The notes under the pieces are model-generated. The model ran no database searches and had not been told where the DNA came from. It saw only the letters and a list, made by a program, of their open reading frames with translations. 44,652 nt of DNA from a virus (lineage: Duplodnaviria > Heunggongvirae > Uroviricota > Caudoviricetes): IMG/VR virus record IMGVR_UViG_3300045988_039442, positions 1 through 44,652 of that record; one strand, 5' to 3'. The first letter of the stretch is position 1, and the number at the start of each line of letters is the position of its first letter. A program made the position numbers and the translations under genes. Below, in pieces: positions 599 to 10,495 of the stretch.

Positions 599-632
599 TG
601 TTCAATAGTTTGGGATTTTACTGAGTGACTTA

Positions 633-660
633 CGCTGCTACACAGCAGCGTATCATTTTT
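633..660 (+). terminator. rho-independent terminator
   Basis: Perfect hairpin CGCTGCT-ACAC-AGCAGCG followed by a T-rich tract. Confidence 0.55.
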
Positions 661-963: not shown

Positions 964-1083
964 ATGGGTTGGTACGGTAGCTGGACCTTAGGCGAACTGG
1001 TAGATGCTTACGAAATAATGGGTAGCACTTCTGTGTGCGACGGCGACACTAAAGCGATAACAATGGGGGTTGATGATGAGTAA
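964..1083 (+). CDS. hypothetical small protein (39 aa)
   Basis: RBS GAGGAGAGA before the ATG. Confidence 0.35.
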   Translation: MGWYGSWTLGELVDAYEIMGSTSVCDGDTKAITMGVDDE

Positions 1084-1696
1084 CAAAAACGAAGTATTCG
1101 AGTACTTGGTAGCGGCAATGCACCTAACACTGGACGAACGTAAGGTGCACAAGCAACAGTGCGAAGACCTGGCGCATGAGGTGCTGTCACTTAAGAATCA
1201 GTTACGTGATGCGTCGGCGCAGATTAAGGAGTTGCAGGAAGACAACATTAGGAAATCCGAGCACATATCACATATGACCGGGCAATCGTCCGCATATCGT
1301 AATGACGCGTTGCGCTTTCAAGCGCAAGTTGATGACCTGGTAAAACGACTGGCTACCGCTACCGGTGATGCAGAGGCGTACAAACTTGCGCGCAAGGGTG
1401 CGCTTGTCCCCGAGCGATCTGGCTGCCGTAAAGAGGATGCGCATATCACGGAACCGTGGGTTAAGTGGGAAGGTGGTGAGTGTCCGGTGCCGAAAGATAC
1501 TATTGTACAAATCAGGATGCGTGACGGGACCAGTGCATGTGAACCTGGAGTAGCGGGGGAGCTGCGCTGGGACCATCGCGGATGGCGTGGTGACATTACC
1601 CGCTACCGTGTAGTCAAGCCAGAGTGTGAACACGAATGGCAATTTTACGGAGTCGGGTTTCCACGTATGTGCATTAAATGCGGGCTAAAGAGATGA
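1073..1696 (+). CDS. hypothetical protein with coiled-coil N-terminus and Cys-rich C-terminus
   Basis: ORF track 1070..1696; first ATG at 1073; C-terminal cysteine pairs CPVP ... CEPG ... CEHE ... CIKCG suggest a zinc ribbon. Confidence 0.5.
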   Translation: MMSNKNEVFEYLVAAMHLTLDERKVHKQQCEDLAHEVLSLKNQLRDASAQIKELQEDNIRKSEHISHMTGQSSAYRNDALRFQAQVDDLVKRLATATGDAEAYKLARKGALVPERSGCRKEDAHITEPWVKWEGGECPVPKDTIVQIRMRDGTSACEPGVAGELRWDHRGWRGDITRYRVVKPECEHEWQFYGVGFPRMCIKCGLKR

Positions 1697-1896: not shown

Positions 1897-2189
1897 TGAG
1901 CCTTGCAACTGACATCCTGAAACGTAGCGGCCTTGTGCCGCTGTCACCGAGAGCTAAAACACAGATATACAAGCGTCGGGGTAACGCGCTGTACCCTGAG
2001 ATTCAGGCCAGACGTAAAGCTGTCCGCGACTGCGGATTCCAGAACGGGAAGGCCGTTAATCTCGGTGAGTTTAAAACACAGGAACGCGCCGCTATCGCTA
2101 ATCGGCTATTTAATTACTGGAAATCGCTGGGATACGATGATATTCCGACGAAACCGCAGAGACGCCAATACATCTGGAGGCACAAATGA
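1893..2189 (+). CDS. hypothetical basic protein
   Basis: ORF track entry; start overlaps the upstream stop. Confidence 0.45.
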   Translation: MMSLATDILKRSGLVPLSPRAKTQIYKRRGNALYPEIQARRKAVRDCGFQNGKAVNLGEFKTQERAAIANRLFNYWKSLGYDDIPTKPQRRQYIWRHK

Positions 2190-2626
2190 CTACAATCGCG
2201 TTTGATGGAAAGACAATGGCCTGCGATACACGTGTTGTGTGCGGAAGTAACTGTTACAACACAGACACAAAGATATATGAGAATGATTTTGCTGTTATCG
2301 GGGTAGCGGGCGATGCGGGGGTAGGGGCTATGCTTATCGATTGCCCTGATATTCTTCAGGCAAAGCACTATGATTTTGATTTCGAAGCTCTGGTATTCGT
2401 GAAAGACACAGAAAAGGTGTATAAAGTCTCGTTTTATAAATCGTGGGATTGCGCACTTAGTTCGGTTATTCCGATTGCCGATAGCTTTGCCGCCGTTGGT
2501 TCCGGTTCTCCCTACGCACTGGCGGCCATGGAATGTGAATATTCAGCACATGGCGGTGTAGCCGTTGCATCGAAGTTTGACACTAACACCGGCGGCAAGA
2601 TTATTACCAAACAACTATTAGGATAA
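2186..2626 (+). CDS. HslV/proteasome beta-subunit-like Ntn-hydrolase peptidase homologue
   Basis: N-terminal MTTIAFDG (Thr at position 2 as candidate nucleophile), AVIGVAGDAG and GSGSPYALAA motifs resemble HslV; recalled from memory, not searched. Confidence 0.5.
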   Translation: MTTIAFDGKTMACDTRVVCGSNCYNTDTKIYENDFAVIGVAGDAGVGAMLIDCPDILQAKHYDFDFEALVFVKDTEKVYKVSFYKSWDCALSSVIPIADSFAAVGSGSPYALAAMECEYSAHGGVAVASKFDTNTGGKIITKQLLG

Positions 2627-2685
2627 TTCCTACCCGTGGTATCCTCCAGTTACTGCATACTTAATACGCACCTGGAGGATTCATC

Positions 2686-2994
2686 TTGGATAAATTTACT
2701 GAAACAGTGACAGGCTGGCTTCTCGCTGCCGCACTCGCCGGAGGGGTCATCGGACTACGACAACATAAGTCCGTTATTTCTGGCCCTATCGACGGCTTCT
2801 GCTTTATTGCAACTGGCTTCACCTGCGCCGTATTTGGCGCACCTCTCGCGGCTCAATGGTTCGGTATCACGGGCGACCGTGAAATCGCGGGCCTGGGCTT
2901 CATCATCGCGGTTCTCTGGATGCCTATCTATTCCCGTCTCTCCGGTATCGTCGCCGGAGAATACATCCCACGTCGAGGAGGCCCAGATGAATGA
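2686..2994 (+). CDS. putative holin (three predicted TM segments, charged C-terminus)
   Basis: TTG start 6 nt after GGAGGA; three hydrophobic helices; immediately upstream of the endolysin. Confidence 0.5.
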   Translation: MDKFTETVTGWLLAAALAGGVIGLRQHKSVISGPIDGFCFIATGFTCAVFGAPLAAQWFGITGDREIAGLGFIIAVLWMPIYSRLSGIVAGEYIPRRGGPDE

Positions 2995-3259
2995 GTTATT
3001 CTGGTTCGGCGGTATGCTGGCAATAGGGGGCACATCGCTGTTTAATGTATATCATCCCAGCGTGGATGACGGACTATTTGGTCGGGTGCTCTATATCCTG
3101 ACCGCTATCGTCTGCGCCGCCGGATGTATCCACCTGCTACAGGGCAGCATGTCGCCTACGCTGCCTGAGACATTAATCACATTAGTTGCGCTGCGTCAGA
3201 TTCGTCAGGCGTGGCTGTCATACGGAGGACATAAGCGTGTCTCGAAACATTTCAGATAA
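2987..3259 (+). CDS. small membrane protein, two TM segments (holin/antiholin-like partner)
   Basis: ATG at 2987 overlapping the holin stop; two hydrophobic segments; lies between holin and endolysin. Confidence 0.4.
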   Translation: MNELFWFGGMLAIGGTSLFNVYHPSVDDGLFGRVLYILTAIVCAAGCIHLLQGSMSPTLPETLITLVALRQIRQAWLSYGGHKRVSKHFR

Positions 3260-3725
3260 TGGGTTGCATTTCACCGCCGCGTTCGAGGGATTCCGTAGAA
3301 CCGCGTACCGCGCTACCCCGAACGAGAAGTACCTGACTATTGGTTACGGTCATTACGGACCGGACGTAACCCCAGGTAAGACCATCACTCCCGGGCAAGG
3401 CCTCCTATTACTGAATCGTGATATGGCTAAAGCCGTAGCTGCGGTTGACGCTGCAGCGCACCACTCCTTGACACAGGCGCAGTTCGATGCAGTATGCGAC
3501 CTGGTCTATAACGCTGGTGCTGGCGTGATTGCAGTTACTACCGGCACTGGCAAGGCCCTGCGTTCCGGTGATATTGCGACGCTGCGTGCTAAGCTGGCGT
3601 TGTTCATCAACCAGAACGGCAAACCACTACTCGGTCTGCGTCGCCGTACTGCGGGTCGTCTGGCGTTGTTCGACGGTAAGCCGTGGCAAGAGGCAGAGGC
3701 TATTGGGCGCACGGTGAAAGGTTGA
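3237..3725 (+). CDS. endolysin, GH24 lysozyme family
   Basis: FEGFRRTAY ... TIGYGH ... QFDAVCDLVYNAG pattern resembles lambdoid/P22-type lysozymes; GTG start at 3237 assumed (ATG at 3186 is the alternative). Confidence 0.75.
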   Translation: MSRNISDNGLHFTAAFEGFRRTAYRATPNEKYLTIGYGHYGPDVTPGKTITPGQGLLLLNRDMAKAVAAVDAAAHHSLTQAQFDAVCDLVYNAGAGVIAVTTGTGKALRSGDIATLRAKLALFINQNGKPLLGLRRRTAGRLALFDGKPWQEAEAIGRTVKG

Positions 3726-3905: not shown

Positions 3906-4055
3906 ATGAAAATCACAGATGTCGAAGCATTCAAAGATGCACAACTGATGGCCCGCATCGCCGTCAGTAACCTTAGCAACAGCATCCCAGCGGCCGCGTT
4001 CTGGTTCGCCGCGATGCAGACACTTAAAGCAGCTTATGCAGGAGAGAAGAAATGA
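3906..4055 (+). CDS. hypothetical small protein (49 aa)
   Basis: RBS GGAGTAGAGAAG before the ATG; stop overlaps the next start. Confidence 0.45.
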   Translation: MKITDVEAFKDAQLMARIAVSNLSNSIPAAAFWFAAMQTLKAAYAGEKK

Positions 4056-4246
4056 AAAATATAGTTACGGAAGTTGGTAAAGGTTGTTTCGTTGTTTCTT
4101 TTTTCAACGGGGATGAGTATGTTGATTGCGGCCAGTTTCACCAATCTGGAGATGCGGGGGCTTACGCGGCAAAGCTAGTAGGTACTACGCCCCTGGAAAA
4201 CGTTCGTATTGTATTCAATATGGAACTCGCAGGAGAGAAGAAATGA
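4052..4246 (+). CDS. hypothetical small protein
   Basis: ORF track entry; ATGA overlap with both neighbours. Confidence 0.5.
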   Translation: MKNIVTEVGKGCFVVSFFNGDEYVDCGQFHQSGDAGAYAAKLVGTTPLENVRIVFNMELAGEKK

Positions 4247-4404
4247 GTGAACAAGGTCCAGCAAGCCAGCCATTACGGGTAGGCCGTAAAGTCAGTCATA
4301 CCCCGTTCCCGACACGCGAGGAACTGATGAAACGCAACAGTTTCCCGGGGCCGGACAAGAACAAGTATCTAAATCGCATGTGGGGGAGCGTAAAGAATGA
4401 CTAA
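4243..4404 (+). CDS. hypothetical small protein
   Basis: ATG at 4243 in the 4126..4404 frame, preceded by GGAGAGAAG. Confidence 0.45.
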   Translation: MSEQGPASQPLRVGRKVSHTPFPTREELMKRNSFPGPDKNKYLNRMWGSVKND

Positions 4405-4570
4405 CAACGAATACGAGAAACTTAGCGTAGAAGCGGCGACCGGGCAAGCGTGGCTTAAAGGCGCGGACGAGATGATCGAACACCTGGAAAAACAACTCGC
4501 AGAGTGGCAAGAGCACCGCCGCGAGCTAATTAACCGATTCAACCTGAACAAGGGTGACGCCAATGCCTAA
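4397..4570 (+). CDS. hypothetical small protein (57 aa)
   Basis: ATG overlaps the upstream stop; same-strand tight packing. Confidence 0.4.
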   Translation: MTNNEYEKLSVEAATGQAWLKGADEMIEHLEKQLAEWQEHRRELINRFNLNKGDANA

Positions 4571-5653: not shown

Positions 5654-5747
5654 GTACATCCCGCCCAATCCCCTTATATAATCCCTTTAGACGCGTAGGG
5701 CGCGTCTGATGCGCTCTGATGGTCAGACGCATATGCAAGGGGATTCT

Positions 5748-6293
5748 ATGAAGCTGAAACTTAAGCAGCCATCGCCAGAGGTGGTGCAAGCTGCACATGA
5801 AGAAGCTGTTAGCGCAAACCGTCGCCGTAAACGACCACGCGGTAAACAGAGCCTTTATCAATCATCCCGTAATTCCGCCGCGTTGTGGGACCCGGACTAT
5901 TGCGACGCGCTAATCGAGTTCTTCGACCGCACGTCATGGGAGCTTGTGCCTACGTCTAAGGGCGACGAACGTCCACTTATTCAGGATAAACCCCCGTCAC
6001 TGGCCCGCTTCGCCTTACACATCGGCGTAACTATCCCGATTATTAAGCTGTGGCTGCGTGAGATTCCCGCATTTGCAGAAGCCTGGGAGACCGCACAGGC
6101 GCTGGAAGAGGCGTACTTCACCGAGACCGGGGCCGCAGGTATCTCTGCTACGTTTGCTGCGGCGAAGCTGGGCCTCAGCAAAGAGAAACCAGTTGAATCA
6201 ACAGAAGAAACAGCACCGACTGAGATTATTTTCAGTGTCGCGGAGCCTGTGGGTAAAATCGTAACAACGAACATGGGCGAGGTAGAGGAATGA
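5748..6293 (+). CDS. terS: terminase small subunit (putative)
   Basis: Immediately upstream of TerL with overlapping stop/start; basic N-terminus and an HTH-like segment; ATG at 5748 chosen within ORF 5709..6293. Confidence 0.6.
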   Translation: MKLKLKQPSPEVVQAAHEEAVSANRRRKRPRGKQSLYQSSRNSAALWDPDYCDALIEFFDRTSWELVPTSKGDERPLIQDKPPSLARFALHIGVTIPIIKLWLREIPAFAEAWETAQALEEAYFTETGAAGISATFAAAKLGLSKEKPVESTEETAPTEIIFSVAEPVGKIVTTNMGEVEE

Positions 6294-7540
6294 GTATTCA
6301 GCTATCCGCCCCGCAGGCACTGTTCCTGAATTGCGATAACAAATACAAAGCCTATGTCGGGGGATTCGGCAGCGGCAAGACATTTGTTGGCTGTCTGGAC
6401 CTGCTTACATTCATGCTCAAGCACCCAGGTGCGCGCCTGGGCTACTTCGGGCCGACGTACCCGGCCATCCGCGACATCTTCTACCCGACATTCGAGGAAG
6501 CGGCTAACCTGCTCGGCCTTGATGTGCTGGTTAAATCCGGCGACAAAGAGGTCGTTGTCACTCGCGGTAAGACGGTGCTCGGTACGGTTATCTGCCGTTC
6601 GATGGATAACCCTGGCTCTATCGTCGGCTTCAAAATCGCCGCCGCGGTCGTGGATGAGCTCGACGTATTGAGTCGCGAGAAAGCTGAGCTGGCGTGGAAC
6701 AAAATCGTAGCCCGTATGCGTCTGGTTATTCCTGGCGTAACCAACCACATCTCCGTCACCACGACGCCGGAAGGGTTCAAGTTCGTCTACGCCAAGTTCA
6801 AAGAGAACCCGACGCCGAGTTACTCAATGGTGCAGGCATCAACTCATGAGAATGCGAGATTCCTGCCGCCGGATTACATTAGCTCGCTGACGGAGACTTA
6901 CCCGGCACAGTTGATTAACGCGTATCTGAACGGCGAGTTCGTTAACCTGACATCCGGCAGCGTGTATTACGCGTATGACCGTCGCAAGCACCGCAGCAAA
7001 GAGACTATTCAACCGGGCGACACGCTGTACATCGGGCAGGACTTCAACGTTACGAAGAACGCGAGCGCCGTGTATGTGCAGCGTAAAGACGGCTGGCACG
7101 CGGTGGCAGAACTGAAAGGTCTGTTCGATACGCCGGATACTGTGCGCGTCATTACCGAGAAGTGGAAATCGCAAGGCCACCGCATCGTCGTTTACCCCGA
7201 CGCCAGCGGCAAGAACCGCAAAACCAACTCAGCGTCAATCTCTGATATCGCGTTACTCCAGCAGGCCGGGTTCGATGTTCGCGCTAAATCCGCCAACCCC
7301 CCGGTTAAAGACCGTGTTTTAGCCGTGAATACCGCGCTGGAAAAAGGTAAGCTGTGGGTTAACGACCACTTATGCCCCGAGATAGCGAAGACGCTGGAGC
7401 AGCAGGCATATGACGATAACGGAGAGCCAGATAAAGACGGCATCATCGACCATATGGCGGATGCTCTCGGCTATCCTGTAGTTTACGAGATGCCGGTGGT
7501 TAAACCAGTAATCAACATCCCCGTTACTTTTTCTCTGTGA
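6290..7540 (+). CDS. terL: terminase large subunit
   Basis: Walker A GFGSGKTF near the N-terminus, about 416 aa, followed by the portal gene. Confidence 0.85.
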   Translation: MSIQLSAPQALFLNCDNKYKAYVGGFGSGKTFVGCLDLLTFMLKHPGARLGYFGPTYPAIRDIFYPTFEEAANLLGLDVLVKSGDKEVVVTRGKTVLGTVICRSMDNPGSIVGFKIAAAVVDELDVLSREKAELAWNKIVARMRLVIPGVTNHISVTTTPEGFKFVYAKFKENPTPSYSMVQASTHENARFLPPDYISSLTETYPAQLINAYLNGEFVNLTSGSVYYAYDRRKHRSKETIQPGDTLYIGQDFNVTKNASAVYVQRKDGWHAVAELKGLFDTPDTVRVITEKWKSQGHRIVVYPDASGKNRKTNSASISDIALLQQAGFDVRAKSANPPVKDRVLAVNTALEKGKLWVNDHLCPEIAKTLEQQAYDDNGEPDKDGIIDHMADALGYPVVYEMPVVKPVINIPVTFSL

Positions 7541-7815: not shown

Positions 7816-9285
7816 ATGTTAACTATGAACGGTCAGAATCAGGGTGTTAAGACAAAACACCGGGAATGGCTGCATCACTTCGATAAATGGCAGAAGGTGC
7901 GACACGCGCTGGAAGGCGACCTTATCCGCTATCTTCGCAACGTCGGGAAGAACGAGCCAGACCCAACCTACGCAGCGCAGCGCCAGGAAGAATACGAGAA
8001 CGGCGCTATCTGCTACAACTTCACTAAACGTACCCTGGCGGGGATGGTCGGTAGCGTCATGCGCAAAGACCCCGAACAGATTATTCCGCCTGAGATGGAG
8101 TACCTGCTACGTAATGCTGACGGTTCCGGTGTCGGGCTGTGGCAGCACGCGCAGGATACGCTGATGGAGATTGACTCGGTAGGTCGTGGCGGGTTGCTGG
8201 TTGATGCCCCAGAGACCGCCGCCGCGACGGCAGCCGAACAGAACGCAGGGTTATTAAACCCGGTCATCGCATTCTATACCGCAGAGAACATCATCAACTG
8301 GCGACTGACACGCGTAGGTTCAGTGAACCGTGTGACTATGGTCGTGCTGCGTGAGGCATGGGAATACTCAGAACCGGGTGCGGAGTTCGAAACCAAGTTT
8401 GGCGAGCAATACCGCGTCCTTGACCTGATTGACGGTCGCTACCGCCAGCGCATTTACCGCTTCGATGCCGAAGGCGGCGCTCAGGACGAAGTAATCGAAA
8501 TATTCCCGGAACTGGGCGAACAGTTGCGCGGTAAAATCCCATTTACGTTCATTGGTGCGAGCAACAACGATGCAACAATTGACGATGCACCTTTGCTGCC
8601 GTTGGCTGAGCTTAATATCGGGCATTTCCGTAACAGCGCAGACAATGAAGAGTCCAGCTTCGTGGTAGGCCAGCCTACTTTGTTCATTGCGCCGGGCGAG
8701 AACATGAGCATGGAACAGTGGAAAGAAGCCAACCCTCACGGCGTGCGTATGGGGTCGCGTTCAGGCCACAACATTGGTTACGGCGGCAATGCGTTTCTGG
8801 TTCAGGCGGGGGAGAACAACCTCGCTAAGCAGAACATGCTGGATAAAGAGAATCAGGCTATCCAGATTGGTGCGCAGCTTATCACCCCGACGCAGCAAAT
8901 CACCGCTGAATCGGCCAGACTGCAACGCGGTGCGGATACGTCAGTTATGGCGACAATCGCGCGGAACGTAAGCATGGCGTACACCGATGCGTTGCGCTGG
9001 GTGGCTGCGATGCTAGGGCTGCGTGAAGGCACAGAGATTGAGTTCAAGCTGAATATGGAGTTCTTCTTGCAACCGATGACCGCCCATGACCGTGCGCAGT
9101 GGATGGCAGACATTAATGCCGGTTTGCTGCCCGCCACTGCTTACTATGCAGCATTGCGTAAGGCTGGCGTAACTGACTGGACGGACGAGGACATTCAGAA
9201 CGCAATCGAGGATGCACCACTGCCGTTAGGTGCTGTTACTCAGGTGGAGGGGGAGATTCCGCAGTCGGCACAGCAACAGGAGTAG
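7816..9285 (+). CDS. portal protein
   Basis: 489-aa protein directly after the terminase genes; RBS AAGAGGA before the ATG. Confidence 0.8.
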   Translation: MLTMNGQNQGVKTKHREWLHHFDKWQKVRHALEGDLIRYLRNVGKNEPDPTYAAQRQEEYENGAICYNFTKRTLAGMVGSVMRKDPEQIIPPEMEYLLRNADGSGVGLWQHAQDTLMEIDSVGRGGLLVDAPETAAATAAEQNAGLLNPVIAFYTAENIINWRLTRVGSVNRVTMVVLREAWEYSEPGAEFETKFGEQYRVLDLIDGRYRQRIYRFDAEGGAQDEVIEIFPELGEQLRGKIPFTFIGASNNDATIDDAPLLPLAELNIGHFRNSADNEESSFVVGQPTLFIAPGENMSMEQWKEANPHGVRMGSRSGHNIGYGGNAFLVQAGENNLAKQNMLDKENQAIQIGAQLITPTQQITAESARLQRGADTSVMATIARNVSMAYTDALRWVAAMLGLREGTEIEFKLNMEFFLQPMTAHDRAQWMADINAGLLPATAYYAALRKAGVTDWTDEDIQNAIEDAPLPLGAVTQVEGEIPQSAQQQE

Positions 9286-9317
9286 CGAAAAAGGCCCCGT
9301 TATGGGGCCTTAGTTTT
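9286..9317. terminator. bidirectional hairpin terminator between convergent portal and DpdA-like genes
   Basis: AAGGCCCC-GTTAT-GGGGCCTT with flanking A and T tracts. Confidence 0.65.
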
Positions 9318-10034
9318 AAGTAGCCATTCCTCTACTGTAGGGGGTTTAACCATCTCTATGGTATGCCTCATTATGGCAGTTCGATGCAGTTTGTCCGTTA
9401 TGTCAGGTAGTCTTGCCTTAGTTTTCGGCACATTTATAGCTACGTTTGTGCTGTCAGCGCTGTCGAAAGGGTAGCGGCTCAAGGCCCGCCCATCCAGCAT
9501 TCTAAGGCCGTGGAGTTTTACATCCAATTTCCTGTTTCTATAAACCGCATTAAATGCCTGGTCCATTCTTTTCCCCCATGACTTAGACCGTATGGCCCTG
9601 TGCGGTCCGCAGCAACCTATCGCTACCCGATTGAACCCACGGCACAGTTTTACCAGTCTTCTTATACTTTCATCGCTGTGCCACACCGGGACCGCCTTAG
9701 ACCTTAACCAATCGGGGACAGTTTCTATTAATGCGTCGTTCTCTTCCTCCGTGCCCTCTATAACGTCCGGTATTATGAACCACTCAATACGACTGAACCA
9801 CTCTCCGACAAAATCATAATATCCTGCCCAGTGGGCGCTCCAGTCTATGTTGTCCGGTGCTTTCTTCCACGTCGAAAAAGCTCCGTTGTCCAACACTAAT
9901 TTACATCTCGTGGCGGCTATCTTTCGTATTTGATCGGGGCGGGCGTATGATACCAGAGCACCACCACCTCGGTACAATGCTTCTATAAGCTCATCCCCAC
10001 CCCAAATAGGGCCTCCGTGGTAATGCACTGTCAT
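9300..10034 (-). CDS. tRNA-guanine transglycosylase/DpdA-like protein (candidate 7-deazaguanine DNA base-exchange enzyme)
   Basis: LVLDNGAFS segment resembles the TGT catalytic-Asp region (LTDSGGFQ) and HGLRMLD a second Asp region; no CxCxxC zinc motif seen; assigned from memory of the fold, not by search. Confidence 0.4.
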   Translation of the reverse strand: MTVHYHGGPIWGGDELIEALYRGGGALVSYARPDQIRKIAATRCKLVLDNGAFSTWKKAPDNIDWSAHWAGYYDFVGEWFSRIEWFIIPDVIEGTEEENDALIETVPDWLRSKAVPVWHSDESIRRLVKLCRGFNRVAIGCCGPHRAIRSKSWGKRMDQAFNAVYRNRKLDVKLHGLRMLDGRALSRYPFDSADSTNVAINVPKTKARLPDITDKLHRTAIMRHTIEMVKPPTVEEWLLKTKAP

Positions 10035-10495
10035 TTAATTTTCCTCAGCAAGAACGACCATAAAGCTCCGCCAAAAACCTTAGCCACGAATTGGCCCAGT
10101 ACGACTAGCGGCATGAAGGCCCCGAAAGCTATTAGTGGGAAAATAAAAGAGTCCACCGCCGAGGCCGCTGTATTACTTACGTTTGACTTAACCAACCACT
10201 TTTTATTGATCAGTGCCTGGTAGACAACGGCATCTATGGCGGCTGCAAAAGCGAAGGCAACAACGCTTGCCATAGCAATCTTGCCGGTTGCCGGGTTTAT
10301 GGAGAAACTTATAATGCCAGTTACTAGTATCAGTATGAATATTTTTTGTACACCAATCCTCTCGTGCAACTTATCTCTTATTACGAAATCAAGCCCAATA
10401 AGTAGAAAGGCGTTTACCGGTGTCGCCCACGGACCAAACACAGTTACCGAAAAGTTAGCGGCGCATATCGCCGCTACGTAAATTGCATACATCAT
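10031..10495 (-). CDS. small polytopic membrane protein, possibly YhhQ/COG1738-type queuosine-precursor transporter
   Basis: Four to five TM helices; stop overlaps the start of the downstream DpdA-like gene (ATGA); SNVSNTAASAVDSFIFPLIAF resembles a DUF165 motif as I recall it. Confidence 0.35.
   Translation of the reverse strand: MMYAIYVAAICAANFSVTVFGPWATPVNAFLLIGLDFVIRDKLHERIGVQKIFILILVTGIISFSINPATGKIAMASVVAFAFAAAIDAVVYQALINKKWLVKSNVSNTAASAVDSFIFPLIAFGAFMPLVVLGQFVAKVFGGALWSFLLRKIK

What the first reader, a model, noticed from the sequence alone, without database searches (positions are those of the whole stretch)
2186..2626. Phage-encoded HslV/proteasome-like Ntn-hydrolase in the early gene block
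The 146-aa protein begins MTTIAFDG, which would expose Thr as N-terminal nucleophile after Met removal, and carries GVAGDAG and GSGSPYALAA segments that parallel HslV and proteasome beta subunits, though it is about 30 residues shorter than HslV. I am not aware of a described phage HslV homologue. It might pair with host HslU or act alone on host or phage proteins.
Basis: partly seen in the sequence, partly recalled or inferred. Interest (0 to 1): 0.6.

Follow-up and report, generated by a model that had tools for sequence, protein, structure and literature searches.

The report
Phage proteasome-like protease (PPH family)
The gene is real and encodes a small proteasome/HslV-like threonine hydrolase, but it belongs to a phage family (PPH) that was described in 2021 and is already annotated in close relatives, is optional in this phage group, and still has no tested function.

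Summary

It is not HslV proper. It scores 15 bits against the 158-bit HslV equivalog cut-off, lacks helix H2 (about 20 residues), and does not keep the residues that line the HslU-tail pocket.

[quoted passage not shown] PHROG 1040 and GenBank already call close relatives "peptidase HslV family".

The window is a Kagunavirus. The gene sits directly upstream of the holin-holin-endolysin cassette. It is cleanly absent from relatives such as Bas71 and K1ind1, so it is accessory. No conserved neighbour or AAA+ partner was found across 49 PPH groups.

Most likely it is an HslU-independent threonine peptidase whose substrate is unknown. Novelty is low and the function is still open.

The parts
2186..2626 (+). 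Coding sequence of the 146-aa PPH-family proteasome-like Ntn hydrolase, stop codon included
2176..2180 (+). Shine-Dalgarno GGAGG, 5 nt upstream of the ATG. The ATG (2186-2188) overlaps the TGA (2187-2189) of the upstream ORF 1893-2189.
   Evidence: Read directly from the sequence.
2189..2191 (+). Codon ACT for Thr2, the predicted N-terminal nucleophile (Thr1 of the mature protein once the initiator Met is removed)
   Evidence: Position 2 is Thr in 143 of 146 diverse family representatives and Met precedes it in 140 of 146. 117 of 119 close homologues start MTT. Met removal before Thr is inferred from the known specificity of methionine aminopeptidase.
2225..2227 (+). Codon for Asp14, equivalent to Asp17 of HslV and the proteasome
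   Evidence: Conserved in 143 of 146. Aligned to HslV D17.
2270..2272 (+). Codon for Lys29, equivalent to the catalytic Lys33
   Evidence: Invariant, 146 of 146. Aligned to HslV K33.
2300..2320 (+). GVAGDAG segment (residues 39-45), including Gly42, the oxyanion-hole glycine equivalent (Gly47 of the proteasome)
   Evidence: Gly42 is conserved in 144 of 146. The segment aligns to GFAGG of HslV.
2357..2383 (+). Short linker (residues 58-66) where HslV, BPH and beta subunits carry the end of helix H1 and helix H2. About 20 residues are missing relative to E. coli HslV E58-L78.
   Evidence: The AF2 secondary structure has only helices 46-52 and 54-58 between strands 36-42 and 66-72. The gap is visible in the hhalign alignment with E. 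coli HslV.
2498..2527 (+). GSGSPYALAA segment (residues 105-114). Gly-Ser-Gly corresponds to the conserved GSG/Ser129 element of the family.
   Evidence: G105 146/146, S106 134/146, G107 146/146, A111 146/146. BLASTP and phmmer align it to GSGGPYA of HslV.
2579..2581 (+). Codon for Asp132, a conserved acidic residue after helix H4. Its position suggests equivalence to proteasome Asp166.
   Evidence: Conserved in 139 of 146. Equivalence to Asp166 is inferred from position only.

Best explanation
[quoted passage not shown] The initiator Met is most likely removed by host methionine aminopeptidase, which exposes Thr as nucleophile without any propeptide. Asp14, Lys29, the Gly42 oxyanion hole and the Gly-Ser-Gly105-107 element complete a proteasome-type active site, so the protein is most likely an active threonine peptidase. 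Because it lacks helix H2 and the HslU-tail pocket, it probably works without HslU or any dedicated AAA+ partner. In this Kagunavirus it is an optional, moron-like accessory gene placed just upstream of the lysis cassette. It probably cleaves some host or phage protein or peptide to give a conditional fitness benefit. The shown steps are the fold, the conservation of the catalytic residues, the lack of H2, dispensability and the absence of a conserved partner. The inferred steps are Met removal, catalytic activity, oligomeric state, independence from HslU, and the substrate.
Against: No biochemical or genetic data exist for any PPH member in the searched literature. Activity, oligomeric state and substrate are therefore all inferred. 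The oligomeric state could not be modelled, because the tools predict single chains only. BPH, the closest solved structure, also has no known substrate, so the analogy gives little mechanistic guidance. The family's restriction to phages of Proteobacteria, whose hosts generally have HslU, is compatible with use of HslU. Direct sequence clustering with the published PPH reference WP_042125023.1 was not done.
Confidence: 0.6

Rival explanations
1. One reading: the protein is a phage HslV surrogate that docks onto host HslU hexamers, forming a hybrid ATP-dependent protease that redirects host proteolysis.
For: Remote homology to HslV, with the same MTTI start. Many GenBank records call relatives 'ATP-dependent protease'. 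The family is confined to phages of Proteobacteria, whose hosts have HslU. Helices H3 and H4, which mediate ring-ring contacts in the family (PMC8665760), are retained.
Against: It scores 15.4 bits against the HslV equivalog cut-off of 157.75. It is no closer to HslV than to BPH or proteasome beta. Helix H2 and about 20 residues of the face that contacts HslU are missing. The pocket residues F54, F57, A79 and K80 (PMC6429459) align to A, I, C and P, and HslV Lys28 has no conserved counterpart. Fuchs et al. found no AAA+ co-occurrence for these homologues.
Confidence: 0.1
2. It is a sequence-specific processing enzyme, transpeptidase or non-protease amidase that uses the same Thr1 chemistry, as archaeal connectase does. 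It would act as a monomer or small oligomer on one defined target rather than as a self-compartmentalising protease.
Confidence: 0.1
3. It is a virion-morphogenesis (prohead or scaffold-processing) protease. This idea came from its position inside the head-neck module in some phages and from the lack of a classical prohead protease in this window.
For: In about 11 of 49 PPH groups the gene lies between the head-tail adaptor (or phrog_14539) and the head-closure protein, with 4-nt overlaps, downstream of portal, scaffold and major head protein. The window has scaffold and major head protein genes, and none of the ten large structural-region ORFs scanned is a dedicated prohead protease.
Against: Of 41 loci with a related major head protein, only the three with 100% identity carry the gene. 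Relatives at 83-84% identity with 4 kb of downstream sequence lack it. Kagunaviruses such as Bas71 and K1ind1 lack it yet are viable phages. By my rough estimate, not a computed control, the share of loci near head, terminase or lysis genes is about what random placement in a 45-kb genome would give.
Confidence: 0.03
4. It is a non-catalytic binder or decoy, for example one that poisons host HslV rings or sequesters a host factor, and the Ntn fold is only a scaffold.
For: No activity has been shown for any member.
Against: Near-invariance of Thr2, Asp14, Lys29, Gly42 and Gly-Ser-Gly across 146 representatives at 30-40% identity is the pattern expected of an active enzyme. About 23% identity to E. 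coli HslV and the missing H2 make co-assembly with HslV unlikely.
Confidence: 0.05

Closest known systems
[quoted passage not shown]
   Same: Length about 140 aa. Met-Thr start without a propeptide. Catalytic Thr/Asp/Lys and the oxyanion Gly are present. Helix H2 is missing. There is no C-terminal S12/H5. It is encoded by tailed phages of Proteobacteria. No AAA+ partner or informative gene context is known.
   Different: Nothing substantive. Direct clustering with the published reference sequence WP_042125023.1 could not be run. This member carries a small lineage-specific insertion at residues 83-91, where pLDDT dips to about 75.
BPH, betaproteobacterial proteasome homologue (PDB 5ovs, 5ovu)
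   Different: BPH is about 185-200 aa, has both H1 and H2 and a long acidic pore loop, and forms a tetradecameric double ring (title and abstract of PMC5777263, listed). PPH lacks H2, and its assembly state is unknown.
HslV (ClpQ), peptidase of the HslUV ATP-dependent protease
   Different: Identity is 23%. The protein is 30 residues shorter. Helix H2 and the HslU-tail pocket residues are absent. It falls far below the HslV equivalog threshold. There is no adjacent hslU.
20S proteasome beta subunits (Pfam PF00227, MEROPS family T1)
   Same: Fold and catalytic residues. It reaches the Pfam gathering score only marginally, 22.5 against 22.4 bits. The family profile matches beta5/beta8 at E about 1e-11.
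   Different: No propeptide, no H2, no C-terminal H5, no alpha-ring partner, and about 50-60 residues shorter.
Other 'HslV' annotations in phage genomes (for example jumbo phage pSal-SNUABM-04, PMC7823757; about 40 BFVD structure clusters)
   Same: Phages of many groups encode stand-alone proteasome-like proteins without HslU.
   Different: Most of those are 170-280 aa and only 12-28% identical. They are probably other branches (AAH-like and others) rather than PPH.

Membership tests
Proteasome-like N-terminal-threonine hydrolases (Pfam PF00227 / MEROPS T1) | Alpha-beta-beta-alpha Ntn sandwich fold | tested here: met
Proteasome-like N-terminal-threonine hydrolases (Pfam PF00227 / MEROPS T1) | Thr (or Ser) as the first residue of the mature chain | tested here: inconclusive
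   The sequence starts Met-Thr with no possible upstream start, and Thr2 is present in 143 of 146 relatives. Actual Met removal is inferred from methionine aminopeptidase specificity and was not observed.
Proteasome-like N-terminal-threonine hydrolases (Pfam PF00227 / MEROPS T1) | Asp17, Lys33 and oxyanion Gly47 equivalents | tested here: met
   D14 143/146, K29 146/146, G42 144/146. These align to D17, K33 and the GFAGG segment of HslV.
Proteasome-like N-terminal-threonine hydrolases (Pfam PF00227 / MEROPS T1) | Score at or above the Pfam gathering threshold | tested here: met
   22.5 bits against a cut-off of 22.4, so marginal. The family profile gives E about 1e-11 to solved members.
Proteasome-like N-terminal-threonine hydrolases (Pfam PF00227 / MEROPS T1) | Peptidase activity that depends on Thr1 | not testable with these tools
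   This needs an enzyme assay and a Thr2Ala mutant.
HslV (ClpQ) proper | Score above the NCBIfam equivalog cut-off (TIGR03692 / NF003964) | tested here: not met
   15.4 bits against 157.75, and 14.4 against 137.
HslV (ClpQ) proper | Helix pair H1/H2 forming the apical face and the pockets for the HslU C-termini (F54, F57, A79, K80, Q114) | tested here: not met
   There is no H2 in the model. HslV E58-L78 is deleted, and F54, F57, A79 and K80 align to A, I, C and P. The pocket residues are taken from PMC6429459.
HslV (ClpQ) proper | Genetic linkage with hslU or another AAA+ unfoldase | tested here: not met
   The neighbours are small phage ORFs and the lysis cassette. None of the recurrent neighbour families that were annotated across the 49 PPH groups is an AAA+ protein.
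HslV (ClpQ) proper | Dodecameric double hexamer activated by HslU | not testable with these tools
   Only single-chain prediction is available.
PPH (Fuchs et al. 2021) | About 140 residues, no propeptide, no C-terminal S12/H5 or extra domain | tested here: met
   The protein is 146 aa. The last strand is at 139-143. No upstream start is possible. Relatives are mostly 135-155 aa and align from residue 1.
PPH (Fuchs et al. 2021) | Second helix (H2) absent | tested here: met
   Only a short helix, 46-58, lies between strands 36-42 and 66-72. The gap is seen against HslV.
PPH (Fuchs et al. 2021) | Encoded by tailed phages and prophages of Proteobacteria | tested here: met
   300 and 145 phage records were found, on Escherichia, Salmonella, Klebsiella, Xanthomonas, Sinorhizobium and other hosts. 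359 viral contigs encode a relative. The 15 bacterial genome hits are all Proteobacteria.
PPH (Fuchs et al. 2021) | Sequence clustering with the published PPH set (reference WP_042125023.1), nearest to the BPH cluster | not tested
   The reference sequence could not be retrieved. The only indirect support is that BPH is the top structural hit.
Prohead (capsid maturation) proteases | Core gene conserved together with the head module | tested here: not met
   The gene is absent from phages with 44-84% identical major head protein and from related Kagunaviruses.

The most novel reading that the evidence does not exclude
PPH could be a free-standing phage effector protease with a ring or other assembly not yet seen in the proteasome family, because H2 is missing. 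It would work without any unfoldase and cleave a specific host factor, for example an immunity or stress-response protein. That would explain why it behaves as a mobile, optional gene that comes and goes between closely related virulent phages. It would then be the first functionally defined viral proteasome-like enzyme.
Probability: 0.25. Interest if true: 0.6.

Novelty: already known. Interest (0 to 1): 0.3.

Why it matters
In practical terms, this gene should be annotated as a 'PPH-family proteasome-like Ntn hydrolase' rather than as 'HslV' or 'ATP-dependent protease'. The latter names imply an HslU partnership that the structure argues against. Scientifically, no member of PPH has been tested, so what a proteasome-like protease does for a virus is still an open question. 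The natural presence/absence polymorphism found here could help answer it. The flanks are identical, and the gene is present in this phage and phiEc3 but absent in Bas71 and K1ind1, all on tractable E. coli hosts. That gives a ready-made isogenic-like system for asking the question.

Tried and rejected
1. Prohead-protease idea. It was raised by the Ad1-PPH-Hc1 arrangement in about 11 of 49 groups. It was rejected because close relatives of those phages and of this one lack the gene.

2. Search for a conserved partner or target gene within 3 kb in 79 viral loci (49 groups at 70% identity). The best neighbour family occurs in only 8 groups. By a rough estimate, not a computed control, the endolysin, terminase and head-module neighbourhoods are no more frequent than random placement would give.

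3. The translationally coupled upstream gene (phrog_9632) as a partner. It was rejected because it persists unchanged where PPH is absent.

4. Defence-system relation. There is no PADLOC match.

5. Mapping to the published PPH reference through cluster accessions. The look-up returned no accessions, and the paper's supplement holds no sequences.

6. Scan of bacterial genomes with the family alignment. It failed for lack of a conserved stretch. A degenerate DNA pattern for MTTIAWDGK was used instead and gave 15 hits.

7. C-terminally extended members (160-205 aa) as a clue to function. The tails are heterogeneous: charged or low-complexity, with occasional Cys-rich tails. They are not informative.

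8. Literature search for experimental follow-up on PPH or phage HslV-like proteins. Only annotation-level mentions were found.

9. Oligomer modelling was not attempted, because the structure tool returns single-chain confidence only and no coordinates or interface scores.

Full report
**Observation.** The ORF 2186-2626 on the + strand exists as described. It runs from ATG to TAA and encodes 146 aa, MTTIAFDG...KQLLG. GVAGDAG starts at residue 39 and GSGSPYALAA at residue 105. GGAGG lies 5 nt upstream of the ATG, and the ATG overlaps the stop of the preceding ORF 1893-2189 (ATGA). There is an in-frame stop 16 codons upstream with no start codon in between, so the protein cannot carry an N-terminal extension. 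The gene is under strong purifying selection: Nei-Gojobori dN/dS against six relatives with unsaturated dS is 0.04-0.17.

**What the window is.** The first 8 kb match E. coli siphophages of the genus Kagunavirus (Guernseyvirinae), such as EC3-1, phiEc3 and G AB-2017, at about 88-92% identity.
- The + strand carries a run of small ORFs, then this gene, then holin (2686-2994), a second holin (2987-3259) and endolysin (3237-3725).
- More small ORFs follow, then TerS (5709-6293), TerL (6290-7540), portal (7816-9285), head morphogenesis protein, decoration protein, scaffold and major head protein.
- The gene is therefore the last ORF before the lysis cassette.
- Whether it is transcribed early or late cannot be read from the sequence. 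The promoter and terminator scans are not above shuffled controls.

**What the protein is.**
- Pfam PF00227 (Proteasome) is reached only marginally, 22.5 bits against a cut-off of 22.4. PHROG 1040, 'peptidase HslV family', matches at E 4e-35.
- A full scan of 1.84 billion cluster representatives found 926 relatives at E <= 0.001. Nearly all of those listed are 135-155 aa and align from residue 1.
- In an alignment of 146 of them, at about 30-40% identity to the query, conservation is M1 140, T2 143, D14 143, K29 146, G42 144, G105 146, S106 134, G107 146, A111 146, D132 139 and G136 138.
- A profile of 135 members matches solved HslV, proteasome beta5/beta8, archaeal beta and BPH equally well, at E 1.2e-11 to about 4e-11. 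D14 aligns to Asp17 and K29 to Lys33.
- hhalign against E. coli K-12 HslV gives 97.3% probability at 23% identity.
- The AlphaFold2 model is confident, with pLDDT 92.3 and pTM 0.87.
This is a proteasome-type Ntn hydrolase with a complete and conserved catalytic set and a Met-Thr start.

**Why it is not HslV proper.**
- It scores 15.4 bits against the NCBIfam HslV equivalog, whose cut-off is 157.75.
- The model has only one short helix (46-58) between strands 36-42 and 66-72. HslV, BPH and beta subunits have the H1/H2 pair there.
- In the alignment with E. coli HslV, residues E58-L78 have no counterpart.
- The HslV residues reported to accommodate the HslU C-terminus are Phe54, Phe57, Ala79/Lys80 and Gln114 (PMC6429459). 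The first four align to Ala, Ile, Cys53 and Pro54.
- No AAA+ gene is adjacent here, and none of the recurrent neighbour families annotated in related loci is an AAA+ protein.
- A partnership with HslU is therefore unlikely, though not excluded.

**What is already known.** Fuchs, Alva and Lupas (2021, PMC8665760) described 22 new proteasome homologues.
[quoted passage not shown] It has about 140 residues, occurs in Caudovirales and as prophage genes, and belongs to group I with HslV, BPH, AAH and CPH.
- PPH lacks helix H2, has no propeptide and has no S12/H5 C-terminus. [quoted passage not shown]
- They found no informative gene context and no AAA+ partner.
- Every feature of PPH that I could test is met here (see the membership table). 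The only untested item is direct clustering with their reference sequence.
- Relatives at 60-96% identity are already labelled 'peptidase HslV family', 'putative ATP-dependent protease' or 'N-terminal nucleophile hydrolase domain containing protein' in GenBank.
- Homologues are also annotated in Phapecoctavirus myophages, Klebsiella phages, Xanthomonas phage OP1 and others.
- BFVD holds about 40 viral structure clusters with this fold.
- Genome papers have noted stand-alone phage 'HslV' genes without HslU (PMC7823757).
- I found no experimental work on any PPH member.

1. The gene is accessory.
   - Many Kagunaviruses match the flanks but not the gene.
   - In Bas71 and K1ind1 the upstream phrog_9632 gene is followed directly by a 75-nt spacer and the holin. 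The alignment shows a clean indel of about 425 nt with near-identical flanks.
   - About 34 of 114 Escherichia/Shigella/Kagunavirus records and 258 of 327 Salmonella records that share the region carry it.
2. There is no conserved neighbour.
   - I examined 79 viral loci falling into 49 PPH groups at 70% identity. The most frequent neighbour family, an endolysin, occurs in 8 groups.
   - About 11 groups have the gene inside the head-neck module: portal, scaffold, major head protein, adaptor, PPH, head closure, Neck1, tail terminator, with 4-nt overlaps. This suggested a morphogenetic protease.
   - Of 41 loci with a related major head protein, however, only the three identical ones carry it. 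It is a moron-like insertion there too.
3. The translationally coupled upstream gene is not a partner, because it persists where PPH is absent.

**Most likely mechanism.**
- The initiator Met is removed by methionine aminopeptidase. This is inferred: Thr is an allowed second residue, and E. coli HslV has the same MTTI start.
- Thr becomes the nucleophile and its free amino group the general base, assisted by Lys29 and Asp14, with Gly42 forming the oxyanion hole, as in proteasome beta subunits (family knowledge summarised in PMC8665760).
- Helices H3 and H4, which mediate ring-ring contacts in the family, are retained. Some ring-like assembly therefore remains possible.
- The face that binds the alpha ring or HslU is stripped down.
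- I therefore favour an unfoldase-independent threonine peptidase that acts on peptides, unfolded proteins or a specific target, and that gives a conditional advantage.
- Confidence is about 0.9 for family identity and about 0.5 for the mechanism. I give 0.6 overall.

**Verdict.** The finding is real, and the fold and active site were read correctly. The protein is nevertheless an ordinary member of an already described and widely annotated phage family. The HslU hypothesis is weakened, and the claim of novelty does not hold. The remaining interest is that the family has no known function and that this phage group offers a natural presence/absence system in which to find one.

Noticed in passing
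window 2627-2685: The 59-nt spacer before the holin (TTG start at 2686) folds into a hairpin. AUCCUCCAG pairs with CUGGAGGAU, which sequesters the holin Shine-Dalgarno GGAGGA. The fold energy is -22.5 kcal/mol with z = -3.2. From about 2641 onward, stem and loop included, the sequence is identical in Bas71 and K1ind1 (two substitutions further upstream), whether or not the PPH gene is present. This may be translational control of holin synthesis.
   Followed up: partly
window 2170-2190 and 2600-2626, compared with L084 and L085: The PPH presence/absence indel is clean. The last ~20 nt of the PPH gene (AAACAACTATTAGGATAA) are homologous to the spacer of PPH-less phages (AAACCGTTATTAAGATAA). The cassette boundary therefore lies inside the 3' end of the ORF. 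The mechanism of gain or loss was not examined.
   Followed up: no
window 9300-10495, minus strand: Two minus-strand genes are embedded between the portal and the head-morphogenesis gene of the + strand structural block. One is a 243-aa queuine tRNA-ribosyltransferase-like protein (phrog_887, E 2e-83), possibly DpdA-type for 7-deazaguanine DNA modification. The other is a 153-aa protein of unknown function (phrog_4899).
   Followed up: no
BFVD entries A0A1W6DWU9 (263 aa), A0A2I7R6C7, A0A6G5YGZ5, A0A5B9NBU4 (275-279 aa); PHROG 1040 profile length 277: Some phage relatives are about twice as long. One is 53% identical over 131 aligned columns. The window protein covers only positions 14-155 of the 277-position PHROG profile. 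These could be real C-terminal fusions (compare the RPC group of Fuchs et al.) or mis-annotated read-through into the next gene.
   Followed up: no
P0229 (205 aa), L064 4001-4558 (185 aa): A few PPH members carry Cys-rich C-terminal tails, with CxxC repeats that resemble DnaJ-type zinc fingers. Other extended members have charged, low-complexity tails.
   Followed up: no
L026, L047, L063, L074 and others (about 4001-4440 in each locus): In about 11 PPH groups the gene is inserted between the head-tail adaptor (or phrog_14539) and the head-closure gene, with 4-nt overlaps on both sides. This is a recurrent moron insertion point inside an otherwise tightly packed head-neck operon.
   Followed up: yes
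window 1070-1696: This 208-aa ORF looks composite. Its N-terminal ~60 residues match phrog_6094, and its C-terminal part matches phrog_9174, 26870 and 16943. All are of unknown function.
   Followed up: no
window 631-652 and 2577-2604: A terminator-like hairpin (9-bp stem followed by TCATTTTTCT) lies early in the small-ORF block. A sigma-70-like TTGACA-16-GATTAT lies inside the 3' end of the PPH gene, upstream of the holin. The counts of such sites are not above shuffled controls.
   Followed up: no
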